Shown piece by piece: positions 6,663 to 24,436 of a stretch of 64,000 nt of DNA. The position numbers and the translations under genes were made by a program. This DNA is from an uncultured Gemmatimonadaceae bacterium (GTDB lineage: Bacteria > Gemmatimonadota > Gemmatimonadetes > Gemmatimonadales > Gemmatimonadaceae): the NCBI GenBank assembly GCA_964437225.1, contig CAYTFY010000003.1:609077-673076 (forward strand), given 5' to 3'. Below the pieces are notes generated by a model that saw only the letters and a program-made list of their open reading frames with translations, made no database searches and was not told the origin of the DNA. How positions within the stretch are numbered: position 1 is the first letter of the stretch; each line of letters starts with the position of its first letter.

Positions 6663-7289
6663 TTGAACTTGCGAAATCCTAGAGTGATGCACGACGACCC
6701 GAATCACCAGGACGTAAACTCCGTACGTGAAGGTGATCAACATATCGTCGCAAGCATTCGGCAAGGCGATCATGTGGCGTTTGCCGCGTTATTCAAAACG
6801 TTCGCGCCGCTGCTCTATCGTATCGCGTTCAGTTACCTACGGTCCGACGCCACCGCGAAAGATATCGTACAAGACATAATGTTCTCCTTCTGGAAAAATC
6901 GCCAGACTCTGATCATTACAGAGACACTCCACGCCTATCTAACCTCCGCAACAAGAAAGCGTGCACTCAAAGTACTGGTGAGCACATCACGCTCTGATAA
7001 GTACGTCGAAGCCTATTCATGGGAAGACGACATCCCTGGCATGGGCCAGCATACGGACGATCCTGAACGACAGGTTGAAACAAACGACGTAACTGTCGCG
7101 ATCATCGACGCCGTTGAAAAACTTCCCGAACGGTATCGGCGAGTTCTCATGCTTCGGGCAACAGAGCAACTCTCTTATCCAGAGATCGCAGAGCTCCTTG
7201 GCCTCCCTCTAAAGACAGTCAAAACTCAAGCGCGTCGTGGGATGGAGCGACTGCAGAGGGTTCTCGCACGTTACTTCCCGCTGCCATAA
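6663..7289 (+). CDS. ECF-type RNA polymerase sigma factor (cassette 1)
   Basis: Region 2 is DIVQDIMFSFWKNRQTL. Region 4 is LPERYRRVLMLRATEQLSYPEIAELLGLPLKTVKTQARRGMERL. The ORF-track start is TTG, and an in-frame ATG at 6687 is an alternative. Confidence 0.85.
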   Translation: MNLRNPRVMHDDPNHQDVNSVREGDQHIVASIRQGDHVAFAALFKTFAPLLYRIAFSYLRSDATAKDIVQDIMFSFWKNRQTLIITETLHAYLTSATRKRALKVLVSTSRSDKYVEAYSWEDDIPGMGQHTDDPERQVETNDVTVAIIDAVEKLPERYRRVLMLRATEQLSYPEIAELLGLPLKTVKTQARRGMERLQRVLARYFPLP

Positions 7290-7398
7290 TACGCGAAGAC
7301 CGTCTGGATAATCGGGGTGGTTTTTTGCCTCTTTCAAAAAAAATGAAGCCTTTTTGTGCCGTCGGGGAACCTACATACAGAGCCCCCCGACGGTATTT

Positions 7399-8481
7399 AT
7401 GGATAACCCTGATCTAAATTCCAACTTGGAGACTCCAGACGCGCTAGTGTTGGAGTCCTACTTTGCTGGTGACTGCAGTAAATACGAAACTCAACGCATT
7501 GAGTCTTGGATCTCTGCTCATCCGCAACACCAAGACTATGTCGAGGCGATGCGGTTAGCATGGAGGCAATTAGGGCATCCAACGCAAATTCCAGCATACA
7601 ATGTGGAAGTCGAATTGTTGCGATTGAGCCGAGCGATCCAAGAGGAGTGGGATACGGTTTCGGTGCAACCTTCTCAGGTTAGTGAGTTTACCGACCGGAT
7701 ACTTCGATCGCAAACGGTTGCTGCTTCTACACGTTGGCCGTCTCGAAATGTTGTTCGTACGTTTGGGATCGCAATAGGCGGTCTTTGTACAGCGATCGTA
7801 TTGATCTTTTCGGGATCATATTGGACACGTCGCTCCGTCGACCAAACGCTCTCGCAGCAGGTGTCTACATATTCCACGACGCCAGGAAAGCAGGCGAGTG
7901 TCGTGTTGCCTGATGGAAGTACTGTGATTCTCAATGTTGATAGTCGTCTCGACGTTCCTTCGGACTATGCTACAGGAAATCGTACGATTCATTTGTCTGG
8001 TGAAGCGCTCTTCACAGTCAATCATGTGGAACATGACCCATTTATTGTCGTTGCCGGACCGAGTACAACGCGTGTGTTGGGCACCCGGTTTGTCGTACGA
8101 CACTATGTAACGGATACTATGGCGGTTATTGCTGTAGAAGATGGAAAAGTTGCGGTGGAGTCCACGGTATTGACTGCGGCGCAACAAGTCTCGGTTGGGG
8201 AGCGAGGGGCCGTATCAGATGTCACCCCGGTGCAACTAGGACGTTTTTCTTTTGCGCGCGGTGTGTTAACGCTCGACAACGTCCCACTTTCCGCGGCATT
8301 GGCCGACCTCAGTCGTTGGTATGACGCCACCCTTCAACTCGGCGATCCAGCGCTGGCAGATCGCATATTGATTGGACGGTTCACCACGGGTTCGATTTCG
8401 GATCTTGTTGAGAATCTTGAATGGGCATTCCAACTGCGTGTCGTGCGAAATGGCCGCACATTAACACTCTATCCAAAGTGA
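7399..8481 (+). CDS. FecR-family anti-sigma factor / transmembrane sensor (cassette 1)
   Basis: N-terminal anti-sigma motif (LESYFAGDCSKYETQRIESWISAHP). TM segment FGIAIGGLCTAIVLIF. FecR domain (VVLPDGSTVILNVDSRLDV...LSGEALFTV...TRVLGTRFVVRHY). C-terminal LSAALADLSRWYD. Confidence 0.85.
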   Translation: MDNPDLNSNLETPDALVLESYFAGDCSKYETQRIESWISAHPQHQDYVEAMRLAWRQLGHPTQIPAYNVEVELLRLSRAIQEEWDTVSVQPSQVSEFTDRILRSQTVAASTRWPSRNVVRTFGIAIGGLCTAIVLIFSGSYWTRRSVDQTLSQQVSTYSTTPGKQASVVLPDGSTVILNVDSRLDVPSDYATGNRTIHLSGEALFTVNHVEHDPFIVVAGPSTTRVLGTRFVVRHYVTDTMAVIAVEDGKVAVESTVLTAAQQVSVGERGAVSDVTPVQLGRFSFARGVLTLDNVPLSAALADLSRWYDATLQLGDPALADRILIGRFTTGSISDLVENLEWAFQLRVVRNGRTLTLYPK

Positions 8482-8490: not shown

Positions 8491-11400
8491 ATGTGGAGAA
8501 TCGGATATTACGAGATGCGATCACCTCTTCAGACCTCCAGGATATTCTTGGTTGGCTCGTTAGTAATCTCGACGGTATGGACGAGCATCGGAATTTCGAT
8601 ACTGAGTGCACAAGCAACACCCCAAGAGGCAACGATTGAGGCAACCTCAATGGTTGTTGGAACACGCAATGCCGCGAATCGACAGCAAGATAAGAAAGTT
8701 ACATTGACGGTACGCGACAGTACCATTCGATATATCATTCATGCACTTGCCGCCCAAACCAATATGATGTTGGTCGGTGACGTCACCGACCAATCACTGT
8801 CAAAGCGAATCTCCGTTCAGTTTAATAATACAAGTCTCTCAAAGGCACTCGCCACCGCGCTGAATGGAACCGAACTCGTCGCTGGGCTTTCATCCGATGG
8901 TGAGACAATTCTGATTCGGAAAAGAGGTGCAGATTCCATCACAACGCAGACGCGAAGTGGAGATATCGTTGGAACCGTTACCGATTCCGCTACCGGGAAG
9001 GGAATTGTCGGTGTCATCGTTAGCATCGTTGGAACAAAGTTGGGAACTACGACGAAAGACGAAGGGCGATATATGCTGGGTAAGGTCCCCGCCGGAGAGC
9101 ATCGTATCAACTACAAGCTGTTTGGGTATAAATTCATCACGAGAGTTGTCACTGTTGTGGAAGGAAAATCAACAACGATGCATGTTGTCATGGCTCCCAC
9201 TGCAACACAACTCTCTGGAGTTGTAACCACTGCGACAGGGTTACAGCGGAAAGTAGAAGTAGGGAATGATATCACCCAGCTTAGCGTCCCTGAGGTGATC
9301 AAGACAATGCCGGTGTCGAACATGAGTGAACTGTTGGCGACGCGGGTCCCTGGTCTGGAAGTCGCACCCACATCGGGAGCACCCGGGGCTCCTTCAAGAA
9401 TACGCATTCGGGGAGTTAGTAGCATTAACGCTACAAATGATCCGATCATCATTGTAGATGGCATCCGAGTGTACGCGGCTCAGACTAATTACAGTGGCTC
9501 CTCCCCGAATGGCGTATTGCAGTCTTCGCCTATCGATCAGCTGGATGTGAACAATATTGAAACGGTAGAAGTGCTCAAAGGGCCATCCGCGGTAGCGTTG
9601 TATGGCTCTGATGCTGCCAATGGTGTAATCGTCATCACATCAAAACGTGGACAGGTCGGTTCGCCCAGATGGGATGCGCAGGCGATATTTGGAGTGACGA
9701 CTGACCCCGGGAAGTGGCCGTTGAACTATTGGATGTGGGGGCACCAACCCCCGTTCGAATCAAGTGTGATGCAATGTACCGTAGGAACGACCTGGTGTGT
9801 GCAGGATAGTTTAGCTAGGTATCAATTGCTGAATGATCCGGCGACGACGGTCTTTGCTCGTGGAAGCACCCAGGAGTATCGGACGAACGTCAGCGGTGGT
9901 CGATCTGGAATGACATACGTCTTGTCAGCCTCATCCAGTCGTGAATTGGGGGCACTCAAGTTGCCAGATGCTGATGTGGCGGTCCTGCGGCGTCTTGGCG
10001 CCACCATACCTGCCTGGCAGCGGCGTCCCCAACAGAACTCTGTACAGAGTGTGCAGGCGACAGTTGGGCTTGATATCGGGAGTAATTCGGATGTTTTGCT
10101 CACGAACAGCGTCACGCAGAATACGAATCTTACCACGCCTTGGTCGAGTGCAATCGAAGTCACAAAACGGATGCCTCTCGATGCACAGTCAGTCGCCGAA
10201 ATTCCCGATTCGCTCTGGGGGAGTGGGGCGTTGTATGAGATCCCCGACTTTCGTGCTAAAACAACAACGAAGGTATTAGGGTTCCGCAATAGCGTAAATC
10301 TCAACACCAGATGGCCATATGCTATCACCACGCAGGCCACAACTGGTGTCGAAGTCCGTCGGGGACAGGATATCACTAAGCTCGAGCGCGGTGCTTGCAT
10401 GGAGGCGGGGTTCGCTCGTGCTTGCGGTCCGACTGAGTTCAATGGGTATTACAATGTTGGGCGACAGAATAGTTTAATCCCGACCGTGAACCTTCGTGCG
10501 AGTCAGCAGCAAGCATTGAACCGGTGGTTATCCTTGCGAACCTCAGTTGGGATGAATTATACGTCCGATCGGTTTGATTACGTATACATGTATGGGTCCG
10601 ACATCCCGGCTGGTGCGAACTCCCCCGACTTGGCTGTGTCCAGATCCGGAAATGAGAATCGTAGTGTGCAGACCACTGCGGGAGGATATGTAGAGATGTT
10701 AATCGGAGTGGCCGACCGGTTTTTCATTCCTCTAGCGTTGCGCAACGATGCGGGAAACGCATTAGGTCCTCAGGTCACAGTGAAACTCCCAAAACTATCG
10801 TGGTCATATCTGATGTCGGAAGAACCGTGGTTTCAGGATATTCCGGTCCTCAGAAAGTTGTCAGTATTTCGGCCACGTGTAGCGTATGGGCAAGCAGGAG
10901 TGCAACCAAAGGTCGGTGGTGGTACTCGTACGTATATGTTCAATAATGGAGTGATTGATGGGAGCACGGTTCCCTACGTGACCATCAGTTCTCCTGGTAA
11001 CTCCAAGCTGTTACCTGAACGAACTCGAGAATTGGAAGGCGGCTTTGACGCCGAGGTTGGCCAATGGATAAATCTTGGATTGACTTGGTATCATAAAAAA
11101 ACCTACGACATGCTTACCACGGAACCAACCGCAGCCTCGGCGGGATTTGGCGAGCGACCGGCTACCTACAATCTGGGAGATGTGCTTAATACCGGCTTTG
11201 AGGGACACCTCGAAGGGACGCTGGTGGATAAGCGAATGGTTCGAGTGGATACTCGCTTGAGTATCTCAGGGAATAGAAATCGACTGCTCAGGCTGGGAGT
11301 GAATACTGAAGATCGAGCGAGGCAGACAAACAGCGGTGCCAGTCAAAATCGAGTTGGATATCCTCTCAATGGAGTATGGGTGTATCCGATCGTTGCTGTG

Positions 11401-11955
11401 GAGGACAAAAATCACGATGGGTTCCCCGATAACAATGAAATACTCTGGAGCGATAGTGCCGAGTATAAAGGTGTTGGAGTACCGAAATACACGTTTAATA
11501 TGGGTCACACGATGAGGCTCGGACCGTGGGTGACGGTAGCAACGACGTTTAGCTATCAGAGCCAATTCACGCAATATATGCGCGGCTATGGTCATCGGTT
11601 GTCGGCGGTATTGAACGATCCAACAATTTCGTTACGAGAGAGGGCGATTTTGCTCTATGGTAGTTGCGTAACTATAACAACGATCAACAACGATTGTGGT
11701 GGGAACATAATTCAGACCGTGTCGATTTGGCGGTTCAATGAATTCTCTGCCGCTGTGGCGATACCGGCCGAACTCACGCGTACTGTATTAGGGCCACGTC
11801 GCCTCCACATAGCCCTTCAGGGCAGGAATCTCAGGCTGTGGACCAACTATAGAGGTAAAGATCCCAACGTGAATTCATCGGTTGGCGATCAATTACTTGA
11901 TTTCGGGTCACAACCAACACCACGTATATGGCAAATCTCCCTGAGGATCGACTAA
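8491..11955 (+). CDS. SusC-like TonB-dependent transducer with N-terminal STN signalling domain (cassette 1)
   Basis: STN-like segment (VTLTVRDSTIRYIIHALAAQTNMML). CarboxypepD_reg-like segment (GTVTDSATGKGIVGVIVSIVGTKLGTTTKDEGRYML). Plug (DPIIIVDGIRVY, IETVEVLKGPSAVALYGSDAANGVIVITSKRG). Barrel end (LQGRNLRLWTNYRGKDPNVNS...PRIWQISLRID). Confidence 0.9.
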   Translation: MWRIGYYEMRSPLQTSRIFLVGSLVISTVWTSIGISILSAQATPQEATIEATSMVVGTRNAANRQQDKKVTLTVRDSTIRYIIHALAAQTNMMLVGDVTDQSLSKRISVQFNNTSLSKALATALNGTELVAGLSSDGETILIRKRGADSITTQTRSGDIVGTVTDSATGKGIVGVIVSIVGTKLGTTTKDEGRYMLGKVPAGEHRINYKLFGYKFITRVVTVVEGKSTTMHVVMAPTATQLSGVVTTATGLQRKVEVGNDITQLSVPEVIKTMPVSNMSELLATRVPGLEVAPTSGAPGAPSRIRIRGVSSINATNDPIIIVDGIRVYAAQTNYSGSSPNGVLQSSPIDQLDVNNIETVEVLKGPSAVALYGSDAANGVIVITSKRGQVGSPRWDAQAIFGVTTDPGKWPLNYWMWGHQPPFESSVMQCTVGTTWCVQDSLARYQLLNDPATTVFARGSTQEYRTNVSGGRSGMTYVLSASSSRELGALKLPDADVAVLRRLGATIPAWQRRPQQNSVQSVQATVGLDIGSNSDVLLTNSVTQNTNLTTPWSSAIEVTKRMPLDAQSVAEIPDSLWGSGALYEIPDFRAKTTTKVLGFRNSVNLNTRWPYAITTQATTGVEVRRGQDITKLERGACMEAGFARACGPTEFNGYYNVGRQNSLIPTVNLRASQQQALNRWLSLRTSVGMNYTSDRFDYVYMYGSDIPAGANSPDLAVSRSGNENRSVQTTAGGYVEMLIGVADRFFIPLALRNDAGNALGPQVTVKLPKLSWSYLMSEEPWFQDIPVLRKLSVFRPRVAYGQAGVQPKVGGGTRTYMFNNGVIDGSTVPYVTISSPGNSKLLPERTRELEGGFDAEVGQWINLGLTWYHKKTYDMLTTEPTAASAGFGERPATYNLGDVLNTGFEGHLEGTLVDKRMVRVDTRLSISGNRNRLLRLGVNTEDRARQTNSGASQNRVGYPLNGVWVYPIVAVEDKNHDGFPDNNEILWSDSAEYKGVGVPKYTFNMGHTMRLGPWVTVATTFSYQSQFTQYMRGYGHRLSAVLNDPTISLRERAILLYGSCVTITTINNDCGGNIIQTVSIWRFNEFSAAVAIPAELTRTVLGPRRLHIALQGRNLRLWTNYRGKDPNVNSSVGDQLLDFGSQPTPRIWQISLRID

Positions 11956-13295
11956 TGCGGCGATGGTGGACGTGTGGGACGCACTATATGTATTTACTCG
12001 CGCCAGTTGTCCTTCTCACTGCCTGTTCGTTGCAGGACTTGGTCGGCAAAACCGGCCAGGATAGCTACGTCACAGATCCCAACGCAGTGAAGGATAAAGC
12101 GGGAGCGATCGCACGCTATAACAGTGTGCCAATTTTGTTCACGGCGATGATGGGGAGAGCCACACTCAGCCCTCCATCTTATATCTTCGTCTCAGGTGTC
12201 TTGTCTGATGAACTCAAGATGAACACCGCGCCCTTCGTCGATTTTCCGTCCGTGTATTTCGATCAGTTGGACAGTCGGACTGTGGCGGGGGCGGTTTTAG
12301 TTCCTTCTTCGCCGTACTCCGCTCTTCACGAGGTTCGAGGACGAGCCGTAGAAGGAATTGGAGCGTTACGAAAATATGCTTCGGATATGCCGACGTCCTA
12401 TGTCGGCTACCTTTATGCGCTCAAAGCGTATGCTGAGCTGTTGCTTGCGGAGTTTTACTGTTCGGGGATTCCGCTTAGTGAGCCGGTGTTTGAAGGAGAC
12501 TTTTACTACACGCCTGGCTATTCTAGGGATAGCGTCATGCGGCACGCAGTGGCCTTGTTCGATACGGCGGCAACACTGGCAACGGATAGTGCGAGAATTC
12601 TCCATTTGATTCGGGTTGGGAAAGGGCGCGCGTTACTCTCGTTGGGTGAATACGCACTCGCAGGCGCTGCGGTGAAAGAAGTCCCGACTGACTACGAGTA
12701 TGCGCTCCAGTATTCGTCCGAAGTGAAGAAGTGGGGCCCTTCGGCGACCGGTAATGTGGCCAATATGGCTGATAACGAAGGGGGGAACGGGGAGCCATAT
12801 CGGTCAAGTGGAGATCCGCGACTTGCTCTTCCAAGAATCCGGGACTCTCTCGCATCGCTCCCAGTAGCCACTGGGGTTGAGGCACGATTGATCGAAGCGG
12901 AGACGGCCCTGCAGACAGCAGGCGAAACGCCGGCGTGGTTGAAAATTTTAAATGCGTTGCGAACGACGTGCACCGACGCTCTAACCTGTCCGTCCCCAGC
13001 GCCTGCGGGCACCGGAGGCATCGCGGGACTGCCACCTTTGACAGACCCTGGGACGCGAGACACACGGATCGATCTAGTGTTTCAGGAGCGCGCGTATTGG
13101 ATGTATTTGACGGGACATCGCCAAGGTGACTTGCGGCGGCTCGTGAGGGTGTATGGACGACCACAGGGAACCGTCTATCCCGTGGGAGGATGGGGGAGAG
13201 AGGGAATAACAGCCTATGGACAAGATATCTCTTCACCGGTCCCAGCAACTGAACAACAGTATAATCCTCTCTTTCAGGGTTGTCGAGATGATTAA
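11955..13295 (+). CDS. SusD/RagB-like outer-membrane lipoprotein (cassette 1)
   Basis: The start overlaps the SusC stop (TAATG). Lipobox in MRRWWTCGTHYMYLLAPVVLLTAC. SusD-like helices (YALKAYAELLLAEFYCSGIPLSE and ERAYWMYLTGHRQGDLRRL). It sits immediately downstream of SusC. Confidence 0.75.
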   Translation: MRRWWTCGTHYMYLLAPVVLLTACSLQDLVGKTGQDSYVTDPNAVKDKAGAIARYNSVPILFTAMMGRATLSPPSYIFVSGVLSDELKMNTAPFVDFPSVYFDQLDSRTVAGAVLVPSSPYSALHEVRGRAVEGIGALRKYASDMPTSYVGYLYALKAYAELLLAEFYCSGIPLSEPVFEGDFYYTPGYSRDSVMRHAVALFDTAATLATDSARILHLIRVGKGRALLSLGEYALAGAAVKEVPTDYEYALQYSSEVKKWGPSATGNVANMADNEGGNGEPYRSSGDPRLALPRIRDSLASLPVATGVEARLIEAETALQTAGETPAWLKILNALRTTCTDALTCPSPAPAGTGGIAGLPPLTDPGTRDTRIDLVFQERAYWMYLTGHRQGDLRRLVRVYGRPQGTVYPVGGWGREGITAYGQDISSPVPATEQQYNPLFQGCRDD

Positions 13296-13371
13296 GCAGA
13301 CACTGGCGAGTCGTGCGACACAACAGCTGTCGAGAACACAATCACTGACCGGGCGATGCTGGTTTCGTCCG

Positions 13372-14487
13372 ATGAAGATGATGACCGTGTTGTGTGTTGG
13401 GATCATCCTTAATTTGGCGGGGTGTGGTAATGAACCTACCGAGATCCCAGTCGAATATCGTAGTTCCAGGTACTGGGCGTTAAGGGTGAACTATCCAGCT
13501 GTTCAACTGTCTACCGCCAGTCCGTACGATACAGTTCGGTTGATGGCCATTCCTCACGGATTCGATGGGGCCCCTCTTTCTAGTTCGGAGATGAGCGATT
13601 CCGTACTCGCGGCTTCACCAACGAAATGGTACTCCACCGACTCGGCGTATGTGGAGGTCAATCAGGACGGATTGGTACGGGCGCGAAAGAATACAGACGC
13701 ACGGAAGATCTATGTGATTGCCACGCGACAACTCAACTGGGTGACGCATACGGATACTACATGGGTTGCTGTAAACGATGTTGCAACCGCTTCGACCTTC
13801 GAAACCTTTCAACTTTCGATCCCCGATTCGCTCAAACGCGCAGCGGGTACGAACACCGGATTGATACTCACTGTTACCGATAATGCGGGAAATCCGGTGC
13901 CCACTACTACGCTTCCGCTTCGGTTTGCAGTCAGTGGTCAAGACGAGAAATCTCCGGATGTATCATTCCAGAATTCCTGGAATGGGACGGTTCGCATCAG
14001 TCCATCAGCCATCCCCGAGCGGAAAACGACTGTGTCTGTACGAACGTGGGCATATGGCGTTGCGTATGAGGCGTCATTCCAGTTGGAAATCGGCTGGCCA
14101 ATCTTTTGTATCGTAGGATGTCCCTACGTTGGATGGGAGTTCAATAGCAAGGGTGAGATGAAACGTCAAATCTTTACCCCAGAGATCGATCTCGGACCAG
14201 GCGCTGAGGTCTCTTGGTCAAACTATTCCGGCTGGGAAGGATTTAATGAGATCGGAGTACCACACGAAGGAGATACGATCAGTGTCGTCTTTGACGATCC
14301 TACGAACGTTCTCGCATCGGCAATTCCCAGTAATAATACTGGAGGTGGTAACATGATCATCCCTGGAGACACTCTATTACCTCCGGATCAGAAATATCGA
14401 GTTCGTCGGTTCGTAAAGGTCGGGACCTACGATTATACAATCCAACCATTTGGCGCTCGCGGGAGAATTATTGTTCATGCACGGTAA
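13372..14487 (+). CDS. Surface lipoprotein with Big_2-like Ig repeats and a cupredoxin-like C-terminal domain lacking Cu ligands (cassette 1)
   Basis: The start is chosen at MKMMTVLCVGIILNLAGC (lipobox). Big_2-type strand LSTASPYDTVRLMAIPHGFDG. C-terminus GAEVSWSNYSG...ISVVFDDP...VGTYDYTIQPFGARGRIIVHAR. The ORF track begins earlier (13216), inside SusD. Confidence 0.65.
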   Translation: MKMMTVLCVGIILNLAGCGNEPTEIPVEYRSSRYWALRVNYPAVQLSTASPYDTVRLMAIPHGFDGAPLSSSEMSDSVLAASPTKWYSTDSAYVEVNQDGLVRARKNTDARKIYVIATRQLNWVTHTDTTWVAVNDVATASTFETFQLSIPDSLKRAAGTNTGLILTVTDNAGNPVPTTTLPLRFAVSGQDEKSPDVSFQNSWNGTVRISPSAIPERKTTVSVRTWAYGVAYEASFQLEIGWPIFCIVGCPYVGWEFNSKGEMKRQIFTPEIDLGPGAEVSWSNYSGWEGFNEIGVPHEGDTISVVFDDPTNVLASAIPSNNTGGGNMIIPGDTLLPPDQKYRVRRFVKVGTYDYTIQPFGARGRIIVHAR

Positions 14488-16114
14488 TCCGATTCTGCGT
14501 CGGCAATTTCTACAGCGGAGTGCCTCGGCAGCCGCTGCAGTTGCTGCGTGTGTGTCAACCGCATCACTGTGGACACAGCCAACACCGTTGCTCGCGCAAA
14601 TTAGCAGCATCCCGGAACCGATTCCGTCCATTGATGACCCACGATTAAAGGAATTAATCGATCGCGCAATCGACGCTGGGCGCGCTGCGGGAGCTATCTA
14701 TGTTGATGTTCGCTTAACCCATTCCTATTTACGTGGCATTTCCAACGACCGTACTATCAGCGATCATGAATCGATGACGGTAGGTGTGCGGGCGTTAGTA
14801 GATGGCTACTGGGGCTTTGCCTCGGGCCCCGTCTGGAATCTGGATGAAATGGTACGTTTAAGTCAGGAAGCCGCACAACAGGCTAAATCCAACGCTCTCG
14901 GTAAACCTCGGGTTACAACACTTGCACCGACGCCCGTTGTACAGGGGCACTGGGTGACACCAATTCGTATCGATCCTTTCGGTATTCACCCGGTGGAAGT
15001 TCTCGATTTGTTAGGCGGGATCGATATCTACGCAAGGCGTCGCCCTGAAAGAGTGTCGACGAGGTATGGCACGTCATTTCTCAAACAAGACAAGGCTTTT
15101 GGGTCTAGCGATGGCAGCTATTGCACACAATGTCGATATCTGACCAGTGGACGATTCGAAATCGAAGTTGAGTTGCCGGATATCGGGAAGAGTTCGGATG
15201 AAATCGACTTTCTCGATCCCGTAGGTATGGGGTTCGAGTTGTTTGATGAACAACGACTGCGTATCGGCGTGGATCAGATTATGGACGACATCAAAGCCGA
15301 TTCGCTCCTCCCGATCCAACCGGTGGACGTGGGCCGTTATGATATTCTCATCGATGCGAAACCGCTGGCGGGGATTATAAGTGGAACCATTGGCGTGGCT
15401 ACGGAATTGGATCGTATCCTTGGCTATGAAGCCAACGCAAGTGGGACCAGCTATCTCAACGATCCCGCAGAGATGATCGGTACGCTGAAGTTCGGATCTC
15501 CAGCGCTTACAGTGACGATGAATCGCAACGAACCGGGTGGTGCGGCTACAATACAATGGGATGACGATGGCGTCGTTCCCGAACCGGTGGCGTTAGTGAA
15601 AGATGGGATTCTCAATGATGTCCAAACCACACGAGAAGCCGCGGGATGGCTGCAAGCACTATCCAGTACACGAGGTCGTTCAGCAAAATCGACCGGTTCA
15701 TCGTATGCACCATCCGGGATGGATGCTCCATTGATCCATACAGGGAATCTCGTGCTCACGCCTTCCACGGAGAATCGGACACGCGACGATCTCCTCAAAG
15801 ACCTCAAGAACGGTGTGTATTTCTCGAGCCTCAGCACCAGTCTTGATTTTCAACTATTGAGCGGAATATCCGCTGGACGAGCCTATCAAGTGAGCCACGG
15901 GAAAAAGGTCGCTCGACTACAGGGCGCAGGATTGATGTTTAGAGCATCTGAGTTTTGGAAAGGGCTTTCTGCGATGGCCGGCGCATCAAGCGCGCGACGA
16001 TCGGCTCTCACTGTAGTAAAAGGACAACCGCTACAACGGTCATCGCATAGTGTAACGGCGGTTCCAGCGGTGTTCACACAACAGACGATTACCGATTTCC
16101 TGAGAAAGATCTGA
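14477..16114 (+). CDS. Tat-signal TldD-like protein, HExxxH-less (cassette 1)
   Basis: Twin-arginine leader (MHGNPILRRQFLQRSASAAAAVAA). TldD-type N-domain (AGAIYVDVRLTH...VGVRALVDGYWGFAS). The motif region reads IISGTIGVATELDRILGYEANASGTSYL. C-terminus KGQPLQRSSHSVTAVPAVF. Confidence 0.85.
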   Translation: MHGNPILRRQFLQRSASAAAAVAACVSTASLWTQPTPLLAQISSIPEPIPSIDDPRLKELIDRAIDAGRAAGAIYVDVRLTHSYLRGISNDRTISDHESMTVGVRALVDGYWGFASGPVWNLDEMVRLSQEAAQQAKSNALGKPRVTTLAPTPVVQGHWVTPIRIDPFGIHPVEVLDLLGGIDIYARRRPERVSTRYGTSFLKQDKAFGSSDGSYCTQCRYLTSGRFEIEVELPDIGKSSDEIDFLDPVGMGFELFDEQRLRIGVDQIMDDIKADSLLPIQPVDVGRYDILIDAKPLAGIISGTIGVATELDRILGYEANASGTSYLNDPAEMIGTLKFGSPALTVTMNRNEPGGAATIQWDDDGVVPEPVALVKDGILNDVQTTREAAGWLQALSSTRGRSAKSTGSSYAPSGMDAPLIHTGNLVLTPSTENRTRDDLLKDLKNGVYFSSLSTSLDFQLLSGISAGRAYQVSHGKKVARLQGAGLMFRASEFWKGLSAMAGASSARRSALTVVKGQPLQRSSHSVTAVPAVFTQQTITDFLRKI

Positions 16115-17535
16115 TGGCGAGTCTAGAATCTTTAAAAACTCCCGTACCACGTATTCTATCGCATGAAGAAGTGAGTCGTATTGCACAACGTGTCCTGGGG
16201 TTCGCGCGCGATGGCGGAGAAACAACCGTCTATATACAAAGTTGGTGGAATGGCGAGTTACGGTGGGCTCGTAATCGCACGAGCCTCGCGGGCGATCGAC
16301 GAGATATTACCGTGCGTGTCTCACGTTTGAGTCATAATGGCGTCGGAAATGCATCCACGAATCAGTTGGATGATGTCTCCTTGGAATCAATCGTTCGCGC
16401 CGCGGAGCGCGGAGCTGTGTTTGCACTCCGACGAGACATCCCATCATATCCGGTGACACCACCGTTTCTGCGGACGCCAGAGACCCGTATCTGGAGCGAT
16501 CAGACATACAACGTGTCAGTCGCTCAACGGGCATTACTCGTACAAACATTGACGGAACGCGCGGAGCAACAATCAATGCTCTCCGCGGGCTATATCGAGA
16601 TGCGGGCGGGTGAGACTGCAGTGCGAAGCACAGCGGCCGCGACACCTGAGACGATTGACTACTACCCGTACACGCAAGCACAGTGCTCCACGACAGTTCG
16701 CCATCCCAAAGGAGCGGGGGCAGGGTGGGCAGGGCTTTCGAGCTATGACTGGTCAGCAATCGATAGCGGCGCACTTGCGACACGCGCGCTCGATAAATGT
16801 ATCGCGTCACTCAATCCTGTTGCAATCGAACCGGGCCGATACACCGTAGTATTGGAACCGCAAGCCGTGAACGATCTCATCTCTCCGCTATTCGGTGGCC
16901 TCAACGACCGCATTACAGCGGAGCGGGGGGAGGGGCCATTCGCCTGGACCATAGATACTGATTTTGGTATATGGCGGACAAAGCTCGGGCTAAAGATTGC
17001 CGACGAACGGATTACGATCAGTCACGATCCCACCGATCCATTGCTTGGTGTCGTTCCCCTACCGGGAATGCAGCCAATTACCTGGATCAATCAAGGAGTT
17101 CTGACAACGTTAGCATACGATCGAACCTATGCGTTACAACAGTTGAACGACAATCTCGGAGCCGATGCGCGACCGGCATATCGCATGACAGGAGGAACAA
17201 CGTCGATCGACGAGATGATCCTCACGACAAAACGTGGGTTGTTAGTCACGCGGTTTTCGAACCTGATGCTGCTGGACTATAGCAGCATGCTTTTTAGCGG
17301 TGTGACACGTGACGGACTCTGGTTAATCGAAAATGGAAAGATTTCAAAGGTGGTAAAAAATCTGCGGTTTACGGAATCCCCACTCTTTGTGCTGAATCAA
17401 ATCGATCAGCTTGGTGTCCCGGTTCCGGTATTCCGACCTATGGAAAATCCGTATGTACCTGGCCTAAGTCCCGGGATCGTTCCTCCACTCAAAGTCAACG
17501 ACTTTAGCTTTACGGCTACCATCGATGCCATATAA
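16114..17535 (+). CDS. PmbA/TldE-like protein, no signal peptide (cassette 1)
   Basis: The ATG overlaps the upstream TGA by 1 nt (TGATG). Contains WWNGELRWARNRTSLAGDRRD, GRYTVVLEPQAV, ITISHDPTDP, KRGLLVTRF and RFTESPLFVLNQ. Confidence 0.85.
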   Translation: MASLESLKTPVPRILSHEEVSRIAQRVLGFARDGGETTVYIQSWWNGELRWARNRTSLAGDRRDITVRVSRLSHNGVGNASTNQLDDVSLESIVRAAERGAVFALRRDIPSYPVTPPFLRTPETRIWSDQTYNVSVAQRALLVQTLTERAEQQSMLSAGYIEMRAGETAVRSTAAATPETIDYYPYTQAQCSTTVRHPKGAGAGWAGLSSYDWSAIDSGALATRALDKCIASLNPVAIEPGRYTVVLEPQAVNDLISPLFGGLNDRITAERGEGPFAWTIDTDFGIWRTKLGLKIADERITISHDPTDPLLGVVPLPGMQPITWINQGVLTTLAYDRTYALQQLNDNLGADARPAYRMTGGTTSIDEMILTTKRGLLVTRFSNLMLLDYSSMLFSGVTRDGLWLIENGKISKVVKNLRFTESPLFVLNQIDQLGVPVPVFRPMENPYVPGLSPGIVPPLKVNDFSFTATIDAI

Positions 17536-18925
17536 TTATATACCCGTCAGGAAAATCCTCACAGCCTGGTTGATCTTGGGGTCTGTTGCCATGCTCGTAT
17601 GTCCCGCGATAGGACTATCGCAAACACGGCTGACCTGGCCTGACAGTCGTGTGGATGTCACCAAATATTCGTCGTTGGAATCCTGCCTTGCAATGGCCAA
17701 GCGGGTCGGGGATAGTGTATATGCACATAGTGATACGCTGACCGATACTCTCCCCGCCACGACAATACGAATTATTGCAGTAGACACCCGTCTTGCCTCG
17801 GCGCAGGTCAAAACCGCCGTTCGGCAATGTCTCGCGCATGTTTCGCTCGAGACAGTACCGTTAAAGTACTACCTTCTGGCACAAGAACTCTATTTGATCG
17901 CGGGACAGGATACAAATGCGGTCGATATCATAAATCGAAGACTCTCCGCTGTTCCGAAGATCGATAGTGCACAACGAACAGCCGTGCTCGATACAGTGAT
18001 TCAAAAGTATGTAACGATAGCACCGTTACAGATCGAAGCAATTCATTCATGGGCCAAACAATTGGCGTCTGCGAGGCAGTTCTTGCCGTGGCAAGATCAG
18101 CTGTCATTCTACTTTCTTATGGTCGGGTACAGCAAGCAGTTTGATCGTGATGCGCAGGTTCAACAATACGGGCAAGAATTACTCACGATTGCTCGGTCGT
18201 TACTTGATACTCTGAAATTATCGGAAGACCGCGAAAGTGTTCGGCAAATGATGCTGTTTGCCAAACGCATGATGTTGCATGATGTGTTACTCGATAGTTT
18301 ACGCAAGAGTACAGCATCATACGCCAACCTGCGAGCGCAGATGGCTGCTGAGGTACAGCAAATAGATCTGAAAGAAAGCGCGAGTCTGATCTCCCCGGGA
18401 CACCAAGCTCCCGAATTGAATGGCGATTTTGTTTTTCCCGCCACAGCACGAAACGATCGGTTGCCGAGAGCGGGAAAGACGTCGTTGGTCATACGGGTGT
18501 TGGGTGATCAACGACGTCAGATTAGGGAGTTCTCTCGTAATGTGGTGATCCGTCGACTTAAGCGGCAATTCCCGGACCTCGATATCATTGTTGTCGCAAC
18601 AACAACGGGGGCGGTTGTGCCGCTTGTCCCTCCGTCGCCTGCAGAAGAAGCCGAGTTGTTTAACAAGATGCTCTTCGATTATGGGAAAGTTCCTGTTACA
18701 CTGGTGGTGAGTTCTCCGCCATTCATCCGGGTCCCAGATCCTGATCGACGACGACTTAATCAACCTTCCGAATTGGAAGAGCGGTGGAGTTGGTTGCCGT
18801 ATATTGGAAGTGCTGTGCTGATCGATAAAGCAGGTATGATTGTGGATGCTTTCTCGATGGATTTTTACGAGAAAGAGTTGATGGAGTTGATTCAGGTGGT
18901 GTATGAGCGAGATCAGGGAGGCTGA
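17525..18925 (+). CDS. Cassette-terminal secreted protein; helical N-domain plus CxxC-less thioredoxin-like C-domain (cassette 1)
   Basis: Signal-like start (LTAWLILGSVAMLVCPAIGLSQ). Motif TWPDSRVDVTKYSSLESCLAMA. C-terminal SLVIRVLGD...LDIIVVATT...VPDPDRRRLNQP...VLIDKAGMIVDAF. Confidence 0.7.
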   Translation: MPYNYIPVRKILTAWLILGSVAMLVCPAIGLSQTRLTWPDSRVDVTKYSSLESCLAMAKRVGDSVYAHSDTLTDTLPATTIRIIAVDTRLASAQVKTAVRQCLAHVSLETVPLKYYLLAQELYLIAGQDTNAVDIINRRLSAVPKIDSAQRTAVLDTVIQKYVTIAPLQIEAIHSWAKQLASARQFLPWQDQLSFYFLMVGYSKQFDRDAQVQQYGQELLTIARSLLDTLKLSEDRESVRQMMLFAKRMMLHDVLLDSLRKSTASYANLRAQMAAEVQQIDLKESASLISPGHQAPELNGDFVFPATARNDRLPRAGKTSLVIRVLGDQRRQIREFSRNVVIRRLKRQFPDLDIIVVATTTGAVVPLVPPSPAEEAELFNKMLFDYGKVPVTLVVSSPPFIRVPDPDRRRLNQPSELEERWSWLPYIGSAVLIDKAGMIVDAFSMDFYEKELMELIQVVYERDQGG

Positions 18926-19192
18926 GCCGCGTGTGCCTTGAAGCAAGACTGGTAACACTTCAAGATGGTTACGTACTTCAGTGACGGTATAAACAGATAT
19001 GTCGCGAACTAATGATATCCGCCGTTTAATCTCAGCCTTGCGCCGTTTCATGTTTCGACGTACCGTACTAAATCAGAGTTAATCCACGAATTCTGAGCAT
19101 TCGTGGCATTATTCTAATTTGCTTGACGTTTTCTCTCGTATCATCAACACCTGTCGCATACACCCCGTCTTTGCGCTTGAGCGAGTCTTGTG

Positions 19193-19879
19193 ATGTCATT
19201 GCCATTTGACCTGCGCGGATACCTTGCGTCGGCAGAATTCTCAGATGCTGACGGAGGGTATTCCGAAAGTCGTGTGAGAGGAACGCCGAGCCGTCCTTCG
19301 CGAGCGATTCATGTCCCTTCCGAAATTGTGGCTGGGGTACAGAGCCAGGACGCCGAAGCTTTCCGGGAACTTGTCCGGCTGACTTATATCCCACTGGTTC
19401 GCTTTGGCAGGACAATCGTTGGCTCCCGGGATGAAGCGGAAGATGTAGTGCAAGACGTGTTCGCTTTGCTCTGGGATCGAAGCGCTCAATGGCAGCCTTC
19501 GGTCGATCCGGCCGCGTACTTGTTTCGAGCGGTGCGCAATCACGCCCTAAACGAGGTTCGCCGTCAGGACCGCGCCGTTCGGCGAGCCCAGCGAGCAGAA
19601 GAGTCGGTCGTTGGGCGTGATCGTTCTGATGGGTCTCCGAGTGTTCTCGAACACATAATCGACGATGAAGTACATGCTACGCACGCTAGAGCGATTGCGG
19701 CAGTTCTTGCTAGTTGCACGGAACGGCAGCGGACGGTGTATGACCTTAGATATTCACGAGGGTTTTCAGCCGCTGAGGTTGCCGCGGTCCTGGAGATCAC
19801 TCCGAAGAGTGCAGCAAAACTCATTGGGCGTGTAACCCACTTGGTTGTAGATCGGCTCCGGCAAGAATTAAAAAAATAA
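19193..19879 (+). CDS. ECF-type sigma factor with an N-terminal extension of about 45 aa (cassette 2)
   Basis: Region 2 is DVVQDVFALLWDRSAQW. Region 4 is CTERQRTVYDLRYSRGFSAAEVAAVLEITPKSAAKLIGR. The N-terminal FDLRGYLASAEFSDADGG is conserved in the cassette 4 sigma. Confidence 0.85.
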   Translation: MSLPFDLRGYLASAEFSDADGGYSESRVRGTPSRPSRAIHVPSEIVAGVQSQDAEAFRELVRLTYIPLVRFGRTIVGSRDEAEDVVQDVFALLWDRSAQWQPSVDPAAYLFRAVRNHALNEVRRQDRAVRRAQRAEESVVGRDRSDGSPSVLEHIIDDEVHATHARAIAAVLASCTERQRTVYDLRYSRGFSAAEVAAVLEITPKSAAKLIGRVTHLVVDRLRQELKK

Positions 19880-19929
19880 AATAGACGGGAGTATGGGGTA
19901 ATTTCGATTGGTGGTGGTGTCTCCTGTAC

Positions 19930-21066
19930 ATGAGCGACACTGCGTTTTCCCTTCCGAAGCCCACTGATGCAAGTCCTGCCGATCGTCTGGTCGAGTTGTA
20001 TCTGGCCGGCGAATGCACTCTCACAGAACAGGCTGCGATGGAACGATGGATTTCGGCAAATCCAGAGATTGGTAGCATCTTCCGATCACTGCGGGCCTAC
20101 AGTAACGACCAGGCGAGCCTCCCAAGTGGTCCTGAAGTCCTGGAAGGAGTTCGCGCAGTCGTCAACCGAATTCCTGCTATTTCCGCTCCCTCTACTGTCA
20201 GGGGACACGACCTCCCCTCCCAACAAATCCCCGGCCCAGGCCAGTCCAAACTCGGGACATGGGCTCGTGCGATTGCAAAGCCATGGTTAGGGGTTGGGAT
20301 CATTACCAGCGCCATCCTCATTTTCTTCAGCCCCATGTGGTCGTCACACACTCGGAGTGAACAGCGCGTCTATTCCACGACGACACACACGGCACAGCTG
20401 ACCCTGGATGACGGCACCGAAGTGATCCTTGCACCGAGAACAACGCTTCGGCTGTTGAGATTCAACACGCAGGCCCGCACGGTATCTATCGATGGAGAAG
20501 CCCGTTTTACCGTCGTCCAAAGTGAAGGTGTCCCATTTGTAGTACAGGCACGAGGTGTTCAGACCCGGGTCCTGGGTACCACGTTCGTCGTCCGTCGTTA
20601 TGCAACCGATACAGTGGCCCATATCTCGGTGGCGACAGGGAAAGTGGTCGTCATTCCCGAACCACATCCGGATCGTGGTGCTGTACTTACCGCTGGTCAC
20701 GGTGTGATCGTCAGCGAGTCCGCTGTCACGAACGTTGACGTAACACGGTATCCGGAATGGCTCGGCTCTGAATTTGTCTTCAGCGAAACTCCGGCGAGCG
20801 ACGTGCTGGAGTCGTTATCCCGGTGGTACGGATACGATTTCAACCTGAATGATTCTTCTATTGCGCGTGAGATCATCACCGTGAGCATCAATACGACGTC
20901 CCCTCAAAATGCACTGTCGACACTCGCGCTCTGTCTTGGCGTCACTATTCGTGTCGAAGCGAACATCGTAACACTAACTCGGCAGTCCGGTACACAGACT
21001 TCTGCACAGACTTCCAGGCAGGAAGCTCAGGCCAAAATCGTGGTTAGCCCTATGGATGACAAATGA
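19930..21066 (+). CDS. FecR-family anti-sigma factor (cassette 2)
   Basis: Contains LVELYLAGECTLTEQAAMERWISANP. TM segment LGVGIITSAILIFF. FecR domain (LTLDDGTEVILAPRTTL...IDGEARFTV...TRVLGTTFVVRRY). Confidence 0.85.
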   Translation: MSDTAFSLPKPTDASPADRLVELYLAGECTLTEQAAMERWISANPEIGSIFRSLRAYSNDQASLPSGPEVLEGVRAVVNRIPAISAPSTVRGHDLPSQQIPGPGQSKLGTWARAIAKPWLGVGIITSAILIFFSPMWSSHTRSEQRVYSTTTHTAQLTLDDGTEVILAPRTTLRLLRFNTQARTVSIDGEARFTVVQSEGVPFVVQARGVQTRVLGTTFVVRRYATDTVAHISVATGKVVVIPEPHPDRGAVLTAGHGVIVSESAVTNVDVTRYPEWLGSEFVFSETPASDVLESLSRWYGYDFNLNDSSIAREIITVSINTTSPQNALSTLALCLGVTIRVEANIVTLTRQSGTQTSAQTSRQEAQAKIVVSPMDDK

Positions 21067-24434: not shown

Positions 24435-24436
24435 AT

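What the first reader, a model, noticed from the sequence alone, without database searches (positions are those of the whole stretch)
15371..15454. All TldD-like copies lack the HExxxH zinc site and share a different invariant motif (TIG.ATELDR.LGYEANA.GTSY)
E. coli TldD carries its catalytic HExxxH in the segment [15 protein letters not shown]. At the equivalent position the copies here read as follows:
- cassette 1, 15371-15454: GIISGTIGVATELDRILGYEANASGTSY
- cassette 2, about 27841-27923: SLVDQTIGIATELDRALGYEANAGGTSY
- cassette 3, about 41131-41213: QLVSATIGSATELDRAMGYEANAGGTSY

No HExxH occurs anywhere in these proteins or in the PmbA-like partners. The substituting motif is nearly invariant across otherwise diverged paralogs, so it is under selection. 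A conserved C-terminal KGQP.Q...HSVTA.P is also shared. This points to either a non-canonical catalytic centre or a non-proteolytic role (binding or chaperone) for a Tat-exported TldD/PmbA-fold heterodimer.
Basis: partly seen in the sequence, partly recalled or inferred. Interest (0 to 1): 0.75.

Follow-up and report, generated by a model that had tools for sequence, protein, structure and literature searches.

The report
Dead TldD proteases in SusCD cassettes

Summary
All three complete TldD-like ORFs carry TIG.ATELDR..GYEANA.GTSY, and none contains HExxH or HExxxH.

Two profile alignments place E. coli H262-E263-xxx-H267 on SGTIGV, DQTIGI and SATIGS, just upstream of the motif. The motif's E.D and N..GTS correspond to E. 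coli E270/D272 and N274..GTS. E270 and D272 are published structural salt-bridge residues.

The decisive evidence is a sister clade of Tat-signal TldD-like proteins in other Gemmatimonadota. These read HESIGH-PT-ELDRAMGYEANYAGTSF, an intact HExxxH followed by the same motif. The motif therefore does not replace the zinc site.

In the HExxxH-less clade, both His, the catalytic Glu and the third ligand (Asp in the sister clade, Cys454 in E. coli) are lost and among the most variable positions. No new conserved polar residues appear. The clade has a single origin, evolves faster, and comprises at least 150 clusters at 50% identity.

It is tied to a fixed cassette: ECF sigma, FecR, SusC, SusD, Ig-like lipoprotein, TldD-like, PmbA-like and an orphan thioredoxin-fold protein. 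The window holds five such cassettes.

Best reading: a Tat-exported pseudo-protease heterodimer with a non-catalytic role, probably ligand holding. This is a new variant of a known kind, of moderate interest.

The parts
2..403 (+). C-terminal fragment of a TldD-like gene (cassette 0), cut by the window start. It ends ...KGEPYQSGCHSVTAVPAAFKNLSFINSLRKA*.
400..1899 (+). PmbA-like partner of cassette 0 (PmbA_TldD_3rd). No signal peptide.
1909..3405 (+). 'Tail' protein of cassette 0: an orphan family with a Sec signal, a helical N-domain and a thioredoxin-fold C-domain.
6663..7289 (+). ECF sigma factor of cassette 1.
   Evidence: 30% identity to the ECF sigma at 55263-55958, which has Pfam Sigma70_r2/r4 hits
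7354..8481 (+). FecR-type anti-sigma factor of cassette 1.
8491..11955 (+). SusC-like TonB-dependent transducer of cassette 1. Domains: STN (weak), CarboxypepD_reg, Plug.
11928..13295 (+). SusD/RagB-like lipoprotein of cassette 1. The Pfam hit is weak. It has a lipoprotein signal, LLTAC.
13216..14487 (+). Ig-like (Big_2, weak) lipoprotein of cassette 1.
14477..16114 (+). TldD-like pseudo-protease, copy 1. It is 545 aa from Met 14477; the ORF opens at 14450. Tat motif: ILRRQFLQ.
   Evidence: (P0001 identical)
15371..15454 (+). The reported 28-residue segment of copy 1, GIISGTIGVATELDRILGYEANASGTSY.
15380..15397 (+). SGTIGV, the position equivalent to E. coli H262-E-A-V-G-H267 (degenerate ex-HExxxH).
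16013..16021 (+). V522-V523-K524, equivalent to the sister clade's D-G-K and E. coli C454-G-K456. The third metal ligand is lost; the structural Lys is kept.
   Evidence: The register is inferred from the [D/C]-G-K pattern and PMC5810440.
16114..17535 (+). PmbA/TldE-like partner, copy 1. Its start overlaps the TldD stop (TGATG). No signal peptide.
17525..18925 (+). 'Tail' protein of cassette 1.
19190..26890 (+). Cassette 2 upstream genes: ECF sigma 19190-19879, FecR 19930-21066, SusC 21063-24434, SusD 24404-25873, Big_2 lipoprotein 25877-26890.
26904..28583 (+). TldD-like pseudo-protease, copy 2 (Met 26904, MPFSRRQFI). The motif is at 27840-27923 and the ex-HExxxH DQTIGI at 27849-27866.
28580..31445 (+). 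PmbA-like copy 2 (28580-29959, ATGA overlap with the TldD stop) and Tail 2 (30000-31445).
32476..40238 (+). Cassette 3 upstream genes: ECF sigma 32476-33135, FecR 33160-34293, SusC 34290-37757, SusD 37678-39114, Big_2 lipoprotein 38796-40238.
40250..41872 (+). TldD-like pseudo-protease, copy 3 (MSYTRRDLLK; TIGR01409 above its cut-off). The motif is at 41129-41212 and the ex-HExxxH SATIGS at 41138-41155.
41875..44960 (+). PmbA-like copy 3 (likely start ATG 41875, to 43353) and Tail 3 (43350-44960).
55263..63056 (+). Cassette 4 upstream genes: ECF sigma 55263-55958, FecR 55975-57078, SusC 57075-60608, SusD 60578-62014, Ig-like lipoprotein 62004-63056.
63085..64000 (+). N-terminal part of a fifth TldD-like gene (MTSQFTRRDFVRL...), cut by the window end before the motif.

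Best explanation
The three complete TldD-like genes, and probably the two truncated ones, encode catalytically dead descendants of a periplasmic, Tat-exported TldD metalloprotease.

Shown:
- They keep the whole TldD fold and its structural signature. That includes the E.D pair after the central helix, N..GTS, the WDDEG segment and the C-terminal K-G-Q-P.
- They have lost both zinc-binding His, the catalytic Glu and the third ligand. Those four positions now drift freely.
- No new conserved polar cluster has appeared, either in them or in the PmbA-like partner.
- The loss happened once, in a lineage now tied to an eight-gene cassette: ECF sigma, FecR anti-sigma, SusC-like TonB-dependent transducer, SusD-like lipoprotein, Ig-like lipoprotein, TldD-like, PmbA-like and a thioredoxin-fold 'Tail' protein. 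This cassette has multiplied in Gemmatimonadota.

Inferred:
- The TldD-like subunit carries the twin-arginine signal, and the signal-less, translationally coupled PmbA-like subunit is exported with it as a pre-folded heterodimer (hitchhiking).
- In the periplasm the hollow TldD/E-type shell no longer cuts. It binds or holds the cargo brought in by the cognate SusCD pair, or otherwise acts as a non-catalytic adaptor. The rapidly diverging paralogues would each be matched to their own transporter.

The TELDR..GYEAN..GTSY motif is a fold-maintaining element, not an active site.
For: Family and fold:
- Pfam PmbA_TldD domains.
- AlphaFold2 model with pLDDT 90.9.
- Foldseek best hits are E. coli TldD chains, E 3e-33 to 1e-32, TM 0.78 normalised to the target.

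Alignment of the catalytic site: a HMMER profile against 5nj5_A and hhalign both put H262/E263/H267 on S311/G312/V316, and E270/D272 on E319/D321.

Sister clade:
- It has an intact HExxxH followed by the same motif.
- In it, H, E, H and the D of D-G-K are 99-100% conserved. In the HExxxH-less clade the same columns are hypervariable, at entropy percentiles 0.71-0.94 in 261 sequences, while most motif positions sit at 0.01-0.16.

Published support (PMC5810440):
- E270/D272-K456 are structural salt bridges.
- Cys454 is the third ligand, and Asp can replace it in Gemmatimonas sp.

No neo-active site: clade-specific conserved residues are almost all small or hydrophobic. The partner likewise shows only W51, R53, Q250, L344, L402 and S465.

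Evolution:
- The clade is monophyletic in 30 of 30 resamplings and nested among HExxxH forms, with longer branches.
- Mean pairwise identity is 39% within the clade against 62% in the sister clade.

Still under selection:
- None of the 150 best representative clusters at 50% identity has HExxxH.
- 53 columns are invariant in 46 sequences.

Context in public genomes:

| Feature | HExxxH-less copies | HExxxH copies |
|---|---|---|
| Tail gene after the pair | 17 of 19 | 0 of 49 |
| SusC, SusD and Ig-like lipoprotein upstream | 11 of 16 | 0 of 50 |

Export:
- The RR pair is conserved in both clades, and TIGR01409 hits were found.
- The PmbA-like genes lack signal peptides, and their starts overlap or abut the TldD stop.
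Against: - No biochemical data exist for any member. Loss of the canonical site does not prove lack of all activity.
- Several acidic residues shared with active relatives remain invariant (D321, E327, D371/D372, E396, D466). They could in principle bind another metal.
- About 40% of clade members have Asp at the ex-H262 position.
- The heterodimer, the Tat co-export and the cargo-binding role are inferred from gene order and signals only. No multimer model or ligand is available.
- The register of the third-ligand alignment differs by 1-2 residues between MAFFT, hhalign and the [D/C]-G-K pattern.
- The cassette encodes no inner-membrane transporter and no obvious active enzyme, so the fate of any cargo is unexplained.
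Confidence: 0.6

Rival explanations
1. Non-canonical catalytic centre: the TELDR/YEAN/GTSY residues form a new active site, carboxylate-based or binding a different metal, that replaces HExxxH, so the pair is still a hydrolase.
For: E327, D321, N329, T333 and S334 are near-invariant in the clade. They lie on and just after the central helix that carries the active site in E. coli TldD.
Against: - The same residues are equally invariant in the sister clade, which keeps HExxxH plus the Asp ligand.
- Part of them (E.D, N..GTS) are present in E. coli TldD, where E270/D272 are structural.
- Nothing new has become conserved after the loss.
Confidence: 0.1
2. The catalytic function has moved to another cassette protein (the PmbA-like subunit, the thioredoxin-fold Tail protein or the Ig-like lipoprotein). 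The TldD-like subunit then serves as a substrate-presenting scaffold for that enzyme.
For: - Tail is strictly co-inherited with the HExxxH-less pairs: 17 of 19 against 0 of 49.
- Tail has invariant D407, R409, R410, E375 and T360.
- All cassette components are co-duplicated.
Against: - The PmbA-like partner has no HExxH and no clade-specific polar residues beyond R53, Q250 and S465.
- Tail has no conserved CxxC and no Pfam or PDB sequence match. Its only structural match is a generic thioredoxin fold.
- No protease or hydrolase signature was found in any cassette gene.
Confidence: 0.12
3. The pair is part of the signalling circuit rather than of cargo handling, for example a periplasmic modulator of the FecR anti-sigma factor or of the SusC N-terminal signalling domain.
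For: Every full cassette starts with an ECF sigma, a FecR and a SusC with an STN-like N-terminal extension.
Against: - Some loci carry tandem TldD-PmbA-Tail triplets behind a single sigma/FecR/SusCD set (L009, L074). That fits accessory cargo factors better than 1:1 signalling partners.
- No precedent is known to me.
Confidence: 0.08
4. The copies are decaying relics with no function.
For: Evolution is faster than in the sister clade, and the active site is lost.
Against: - The ORFs are intact in every copy.
- 53 columns are invariant across 46 sequences.
- There are at least 150 clusters at 50% identity.
- The fold prediction is confident.
- Gene order and translational coupling are conserved.
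Confidence: 0.03

Closest known systems
E. coli TldD (catalytic subunit of the TldD/TldE microcin-B17-processing metalloprotease; PDB 5NJ5 chain A; MEROPS M103)
   Same: - Same three-domain fold: Foldseek E about 1e-32, TM 0.78.
- Same Pfam domains.
- Same structural E.D...N..GTS segment after the central helix, the WDDEG segment, and the C-terminal Lys.
- A TldE/PmbA-type gene lies directly downstream.
   Different: - H262, E263, H267 and the Cys454-equivalent ligand are all absent.
- There is a six-residue insert (R.LGYE) after the E.D pair.
- It has a Tat signal and so is periplasmic, whereas E. coli TldD is cytoplasmic.
- Identity to E. coli TldD is only about 19%.
- It is embedded in SusCD-type cassettes.
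HExxxH-bearing Tat-signal TldD/PmbA pairs of Gemmatimonadota (sister clade found here, loci L019-L081)
   Same: - 30-38% identical.
- Same Tat RR motif.
- Same T-ELDR-.-GYEAN-..-GTS[FY] and K-G-Q-P motifs.
- Same signal-less, coupled PmbA-like partner.
   Different: - The sister clade keeps HExxxH, the D of D-G-K, the Arg equivalent to E. coli R362 and many cleft residues.
- It evolves more slowly: 62% mean identity against 39%.
- It is never followed by Tail or preceded by SusCD, and its neighbours vary.
TldE/PmbA (non-catalytic subunit; PDB 5NJ5 chain B, 1VPB, 1VL4, 3QTD, 3TV9)
   Same: It lacks any HExxxH and any recognised catalytic site yet keeps the fold (PMC5810440). The window's PmbA-like partners belong here (1vpb at E 1.8e-7).
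   Different: The TldD-like copies are not TldE. Their nearest relatives are HExxxH-bearing TldD forms, Foldseek ranks TldD chains first, and NCBIfam's only family hit is the archaeal TldD model, far below its cut-off. They are a second, independent loss of the site, so both subunits of the pair lack it.
ECF-sigma/anti-sigma-regulated SusC/SusD loci of Bacteroidota (PUL-type trans-envelope signalling systems; RagAB-type peptide importers). Comparison from general knowledge.
   Same: The gene order sigma, FecR, SusC with an N-terminal extension, SusD lipoprotein, further lipoprotein and periplasmic accessory proteins. Many diverged paralogous copies occur per genome.
   Different: - The host phylum is Gemmatimonadota.
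- No glycoside hydrolase or active peptidase is encoded.
- The accessory genes are a dead TldD, a TldE-like protein and a CxxC-less thioredoxin-fold protein.
- The SusD Pfam hits are below the gathering score.

Membership tests
TldD/PmbA superfamily (Pfam PF01523/PF19290/PF19289) | Three-domain PmbA_TldD architecture and fold | tested here: met
   PF19289 scores 50-62 bits against a cut-off of 22, and PF01523 scores 22.6-28.5 bits against a cut-off of 20.9, in all three copies. The AlphaFold2 model has pLDDT 90.9. Foldseek matches TldD and TldE structures at E 1e-25 to 3e-33.
TldD metalloprotease (MEROPS M103 catalytic subunit) | HExxxH on the central helix (two zinc-binding His and a catalytic Glu) | tested here: not met
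   The motif is absent anywhere in the proteins. The aligned positions read S-G-...-V, D-Q-...-I and S-A-...-S and are hypervariable clade-wide.
TldD metalloprotease (MEROPS M103 catalytic subunit) | Third metal ligand near the C-terminus (Cys454 in E. coli, Asp in some taxa) | tested here: not met
   The sister clade has an invariant D in D-G-K. The window copies have V, R and A at that position. Across the clade the position sits at entropy percentile 0.94. The exact register is inferred (PMC5810440).
TldD metalloprotease (MEROPS M103 catalytic subunit) | Structural E270/D272-K456 clamp tether | tested here: met
   E319/D321 align to E270/D272 in two independent profile alignments. K524 is conserved in 244 of 261 sequences. 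The 3D contact itself was not checked, because no coordinates are returned.
TldD metalloprotease (MEROPS M103 catalytic subunit) | Heterodimer with TldE/PmbA and peptidase activity | not testable with these tools
   Only gene adjacency and start/stop overlap are available. There is no multimer prediction and no biochemistry.
NCBIfam NF040952 (archaeal zinc metalloprotease TldD, equivalog) | Score above the curated cut-off of 635 bits | tested here: not met
   The copies score 38-53 bits.
TldE/PmbA non-catalytic subunit | Closest relatives are TldE-type proteins | tested here: not met
   For the TldD-like copies the nearest clade is HExxxH-bearing, and Foldseek ranks TldD chains first. The feature is met for the downstream partners.
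Tat (twin-arginine) substrates | S/T-R-R-x-F-L-K motif followed by a hydrophobic stretch at the N-terminus | tested here: met
   - TIGR01409 scores 19.8 bits against a cut-off of 16.7 for copy 3, and 16.4 bits for copy 1, just below the cut-off.
- Copy 2 reads MPFSRRQFI.
- The RR pair is 96-100% conserved in both clades.
- Export itself was not tested.
SusC/SusD-type outer-membrane uptake locus with ECF sigma/anti-sigma control | TonB-dependent receptor with Plug, CarboxypepD_reg and an N-terminal STN domain, followed by a SusD-family lipoprotein and preceded by an ECF sigma and FecR | tested here: inconclusive
   The Plug, CarboxypepD_reg, FecR and Sigma70_r2/r4 hits are clear. The STN hit (21.7 bits against 28.4) and the SusD_RagB hits (16-18 bits against 23.1) are below gathering scores.

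The most novel reading that the evidence does not exclude
A hollow TldD/TldE-type shell with no protease site in either subunit, co-exported by Tat, acts as a new kind of periplasmic cargo receptor or holding chamber for SusCD-type TonB-dependent import in Gemmatimonadota. It works with a redox-dead thioredoxin-fold partner, and each diverged paralogue set recognises a different, probably peptide-like, substrate.
Probability: 0.25. Interest if true: 0.7.

Novelty: new variant of a known kind. Interest (0 to 1): 0.5.

Why it matters
- TldD/E is a widespread but poorly understood protease family, and its only described inactive members are the TldE subunits. This work delimits a large, fast-evolving clade in which the catalytic subunit itself has died, leaving a heterodimer with no recognisable active site.
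- Several hundred proteins that sources currently name 'TldD protein' or 'metallopeptidase TldD-related protein' should therefore not be assumed to be peptidases.
- The strict link to multi-copy SusCD-type cassettes in Gemmatimonadota suggests a non-catalytic job in nutrient or signal uptake. Outer-membrane biology in this soil and freshwater phylum is almost unstudied.
- The clade offers a natural active/inactive pair of clades for testing what the TldD/E shell does besides cutting.
- It also corrects the attractive but wrong idea that the conserved TELDR/YEAN motif is a new catalytic centre.

Tried and rejected
- phmmer of copy 1 against PDB sequences found nothing. A family profile was needed.
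- The second large protein search, with E. coli TldD as query, returned only enterobacterial sequences at 85% identity or more. It gave a shallow canonical profile, usable only as a near single-sequence target for hhalign.
- A first tree script timed out. It was replaced by a simple distance and neighbour-joining analysis.
- Pfam at E up to 5 found nothing for the Tail proteins or for ORF 3726-4757.
The phylum assignment rests on the names of homologues.
- Literature searches found no description of HExxxH-less TldD or of these cassettes. The terms tried were TldD with twin-arginine, SusC, Gemmatimonas and polysaccharide utilization; peptidase U62 with TonB; and Gemmatimonad with SusD.
- Promoter and terminator scans were no better than shuffles.
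- No tRNA genes were found.
- One Pfam call failed because of wrong coordinates.

Considered and rejected:
- The motif as a substitute active site. See the rival explanations.
- Misalignment of the E. coli motif. Two independent profile methods and the sister clade agree.
- HExxH hidden elsewhere in either subunit. There is none.
Full report
**1. Observation**

The reported segment is real.
- Window 15371-15454 translates to GIISGTIGVATELDRILGYEANASGTSY.
- The coordinates given for the other two copies were 1-2 nt out of frame, but the peptide strings are exact at 27840-27923 and 41129-41212.

The three host ORFs are 14450-16114, 26643-28583 (true start probably Met 26904) and 40250-41872. They match Pfam PmbA_TldD_1st, PmbA_TldD_2nd (the latter below its gathering score, and not hit in copy 3) and PmbA_TldD_3rd. 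Each is followed by an ORF that matches only PmbA_TldD_3rd.

A regex scan found no HExxH, HExxxH or reversed variant in any of them. E. coli K-12 TldD does read [22 protein letters not shown].

The window also holds the C-terminal end of a fourth TldD-like gene (2-403) and the N-terminal part of a fifth (from 63085).

**2. Where the HExxxH would be**

The proteins are too diverged for a pairwise PDB hit. A profile of 46 family members (A1) aligns to E. coli TldD (5nj5_A) over nearly its whole length, and hhalign gives the same register (probability 96%):

| E. coli TldD | G | V | L | L | H262 | E263 | A | V | G | H267 | G | L | E270 | G | D272 |
|---|---|---|---|---|---|---|---|---|---|---|---|---|---|---|---|
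| Window copy 1 | G | I | I | S311 | G312 | T | I | G | V316 | A | T | E319 | L | D321 | |

(Read the copy 1 row shifted one column right: the alignment pairs H262 with S311, E263 with G312, H267 with V316, E270 with E319 and D272 with D321.)

After D321 comes a six-residue insert (RILGYE), and then A-N-..-G-T-S pairs with E. coli F-N274-R-R-G-T-S.

The zinc ligands and catalytic Glu therefore correspond to S/G/V in copy 1, D/Q/I in copy 2 and S/A/S in copy 3. The E and D of 'TELDR' are the counterparts of E270 and D272.

Ghilarov et al. (PMC5810440, read) describe three relevant points:
- E270 and D272 are highly conserved residues that tether the clamp through salt bridges to Lys456. Their Ala mutants fail to express as soluble protein.
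- Cys454 is the third metal ligand.
- Asp can replace that Cys 'e.g. in Gemmatimonas sp.'.

An AlphaFold2 model of copy 1 is confident (pLDDT 90.9, pTM 0.89). It places residues 303-318 in a helix. Its best Foldseek matches are the E. coli TldD chains (E 3e-33 to 1e-32, TM 0.78 normalised to the target), followed by TldE structures.

**3. The decisive comparison**

A scan of one genome per species returned 80 loci, 77 labelled Gemmatimonadota or one of its subgroups (the others: two unclassified bacterium MAGs and one Chlorobiaceae MAG). Their TldD-like ORFs fall into two groups.
- 71 have an intact HExxxH.
- 21 copies lack HExxxH. Together with the three window copies, they show almost any residue at the three positions.

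Column statistics:
- In the HExxxH group, H, E, H, the D of a C-terminal D-G-K (the [C/D]-G-K of E. coli C454-G-K456) and the Arg equivalent to E. coli R362 are 99-100% conserved.
- In the HExxxH-less group the same columns are the most variable.
- E/D321, R322, G325, E327, A328, N329, G332, T333, S334, K524, G525, P527 and D371/D372 are conserved in both groups.

In 261 HExxxH-less sequences the four ex-ligand positions lie at entropy percentiles 0.71-0.94. Most motif positions lie at 0.01-0.16.

Residues conserved only in the HExxxH-less group are nearly all small or hydrophobic: W129, L137, A307, T313, G315, A317, A330, Y335, G472, F497 and V535, plus E183 and D549.

So nothing has replaced the lost site. 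The motif is a fold element that predates the loss.

**4. Evolution**
- In a neighbour-joining tree rooted on E. coli TldD, the HExxxH-less sequences are monophyletic in 30 of 30 column resamplings. The HExxxH forms are paraphyletic around them (monophyletic in only 2 of 30). Root-to-tip lengths are 2.86 against 2.15.
- Mean pairwise identity is 62% within the HExxxH group, 39% within the HExxxH-less group and 31% between them.
- The PmbA-like partners co-diverge in the same way (57%, 43% and 34.5%). They show no new conserved polar cluster and no HExxH.
- The clade is large. A profile search of 1.84 billion representatives gave 797 hits at E of 1e-30 or lower, and none of the best 150 clusters at 50% identity has HExxxH. 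In the more distant members even E327 or D321 can vary.
- Every source-given name with an organism among the close hits is Gemmatimonadaceae or Gemmatimonadales; JGI entries carry only 'TldD protein'.

**5. Context**

All cassette genes are on the + strand and are paralogous from cassette to cassette. The order is:

1. ECF sigma
2. FecR anti-sigma
3. SusC-like TonB-dependent receptor (Plug, CarboxypepD_reg, weak STN)
4. SusD-like lipoprotein (weak Pfam hit)
5. Ig-like (Big_2) lipoprotein
6. TldD-like
7. PmbA-like
8. 'Tail'

These assignments rest. The window holds the end of one cassette, three complete cassettes and the start of a fifth.

In public genomes (for the architectures):

| Feature | HExxxH-less copies | HExxxH copies |
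|---|---|---|
| Tail gene after the pair | 17 of 19 | 0 of 49 |
| SusC, SusD and Ig-like lipoprotein upstream | 11 of 16 | 0 of 50 |

The HExxxH pairs have variable neighbours.

Tail is an orphan family. It has 15 homologues and no Pfam hit. The model has pLDDT 80.7 and shows a helical N-domain and a thioredoxin-fold C-domain. Its best structural matches are Bacteroides TlpA-like domains 3FW2 and 3FKF and Bcp 3DRN, at TM 0.64-0.72 normalised to the target. There is no conserved CxxC. The invariant residues include P-D-R-R-R.

**6. Export**
- The TldD-like proteins start with S/T-R-R-x-F-L motifs, and the RR pair is 96-100% conserved in both clades.
- The PmbA-like ORFs have no signal peptide. 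They start at or across the TldD stop codon: TGATG, ATGA, or 3 nt downstream. The same holds in the HExxxH clade.
- The simplest inference is co-export of a folded heterodimer by Tat. This is not shown.

**7. Interpretation**

Shown:
- The proteins are TldD-lineage and have the TldD fold.
- All four catalytic and metal-binding residues are lost.
- No replacement residues have become conserved.
- The loss has a single origin, and evolution is accelerated but still constrained.
- The clade is tightly linked to a SusCD-type cassette.

Inferred:
- The pair is a pseudo-protease.
- Given that the E. coli TldD/E shell binds unfolded peptides sequence-independently inside its cavity (PMC5810440), the most economical role is non-catalytic binding or holding of cargo imported by the cognate SusCD pair. 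Paralogues would be specialised for different substrates.

I put about 0.9 on 'canonical site dead', about 0.7 on 'no hydrolytic role', and about 0.35 on 'cargo binding' specifically.

Rival explanations are a carboxylate-based neo-active site, catalysis supplied by Tail or the PmbA-like subunit, a signalling role, and functionless relics. They are discussed with their refutation tests in the rival explanations section.

**8. Comparison and novelty**

HExxxH-less family members are well known as TldE/PmbA. The new points are:
- a second, independent loss within the TldD lineage, which leaves both subunits without a site;
- its size as a clade;
- its exclusive association with ECF/FecR/SusCD cassettes and a CxxC-less thioredoxin-fold protein in Gemmatimonadota.

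Seven full-text searches found no description of this.

It is a new variant of a known kind. The premise that the motif substitutes for the zinc site is refuted.

Noticed in passing
window 1909-3405, 17525-18925, 30000-31445, 43350-44960: An orphan 'Tail' protein closes every cassette. It has a Sec signal and a helical N-domain with two invariant Cys (C54, C102). Its C-terminal thioredoxin fold lacks a conserved CxxC but has invariant T-x-G, E375 and P-D-R-R-R. No Pfam family matches and only 15 homologues were found. It looks like a second 'dead enzyme' in the same cassette.
   Followed up: partly
window 16111-16117, 28580-28583, 41872-41877: The PmbA-like genes have no signal peptide and start on or next to the stop codon of the Tat-signal TldD-like gene. 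This suggests translational coupling and Tat 'hitchhiker' co-export. The same holds for the HExxxH-bearing sister clade.
   Followed up: partly
window 44960-55263, especially 52001-54000: The cassette array is interrupted by about 10 kb of unrelated genes:
- an 8xMP/DUF7701 membrane protein gene (49984-50802, minus strand);
- an unknown 396-aa ORF (48571-49761, minus strand);
- an XRE-type HTH gene (52213-53076).

GC drops to 0.427 at 52001-54000, against 0.51-0.57 elsewhere, so this may be an acquired islet.
   Followed up: no
whole window: GC content is only about 0.52-0.55. That is low for Gemmatimonadaceae as I remember them (typically above 0.6). The source organism could not be named.
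   Followed up: no
L009 5180-17737 and L074 (Gemmatimonas phototrophica-labelled MAG): Tandem TldD-PmbA-Tail triplets (two or three in a row) sit behind a single SusC-SusD-lipoprotein set. The triplet is therefore the duplicating core unit.
   Followed up: no
sister-clade loci L019-L081 (alignment column equivalent to window copy 1 V535): The HExxxH-bearing Tat-TldD clade has an extra invariant His in a C-terminal S-H-G, where E. coli has V465 and the HExxxH-less clade has Val. It also has invariant Y and A in 'EANYAGTSF'. These may be additional active-site residues specific to the periplasmic enzymes.
   Followed up: no
window 3726-4757: A 343-aa ORF after cassette 0 has no Pfam match and no paralogue in the other cassettes.
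   Followed up: no
window 13216-14487, 25877-26890, 38796-40238, 62004-63056: The lipoproteins between SusD and TldD-like (lipobox LAGC, ATGC or GGGC in three of the four; none seen in the 38796-40238 copy) carry a Big_2 Ig-like domain and diverge fast, at 24-30% identity between cassettes. They are candidate surface cargo-binding proteins.
   Followed up: no
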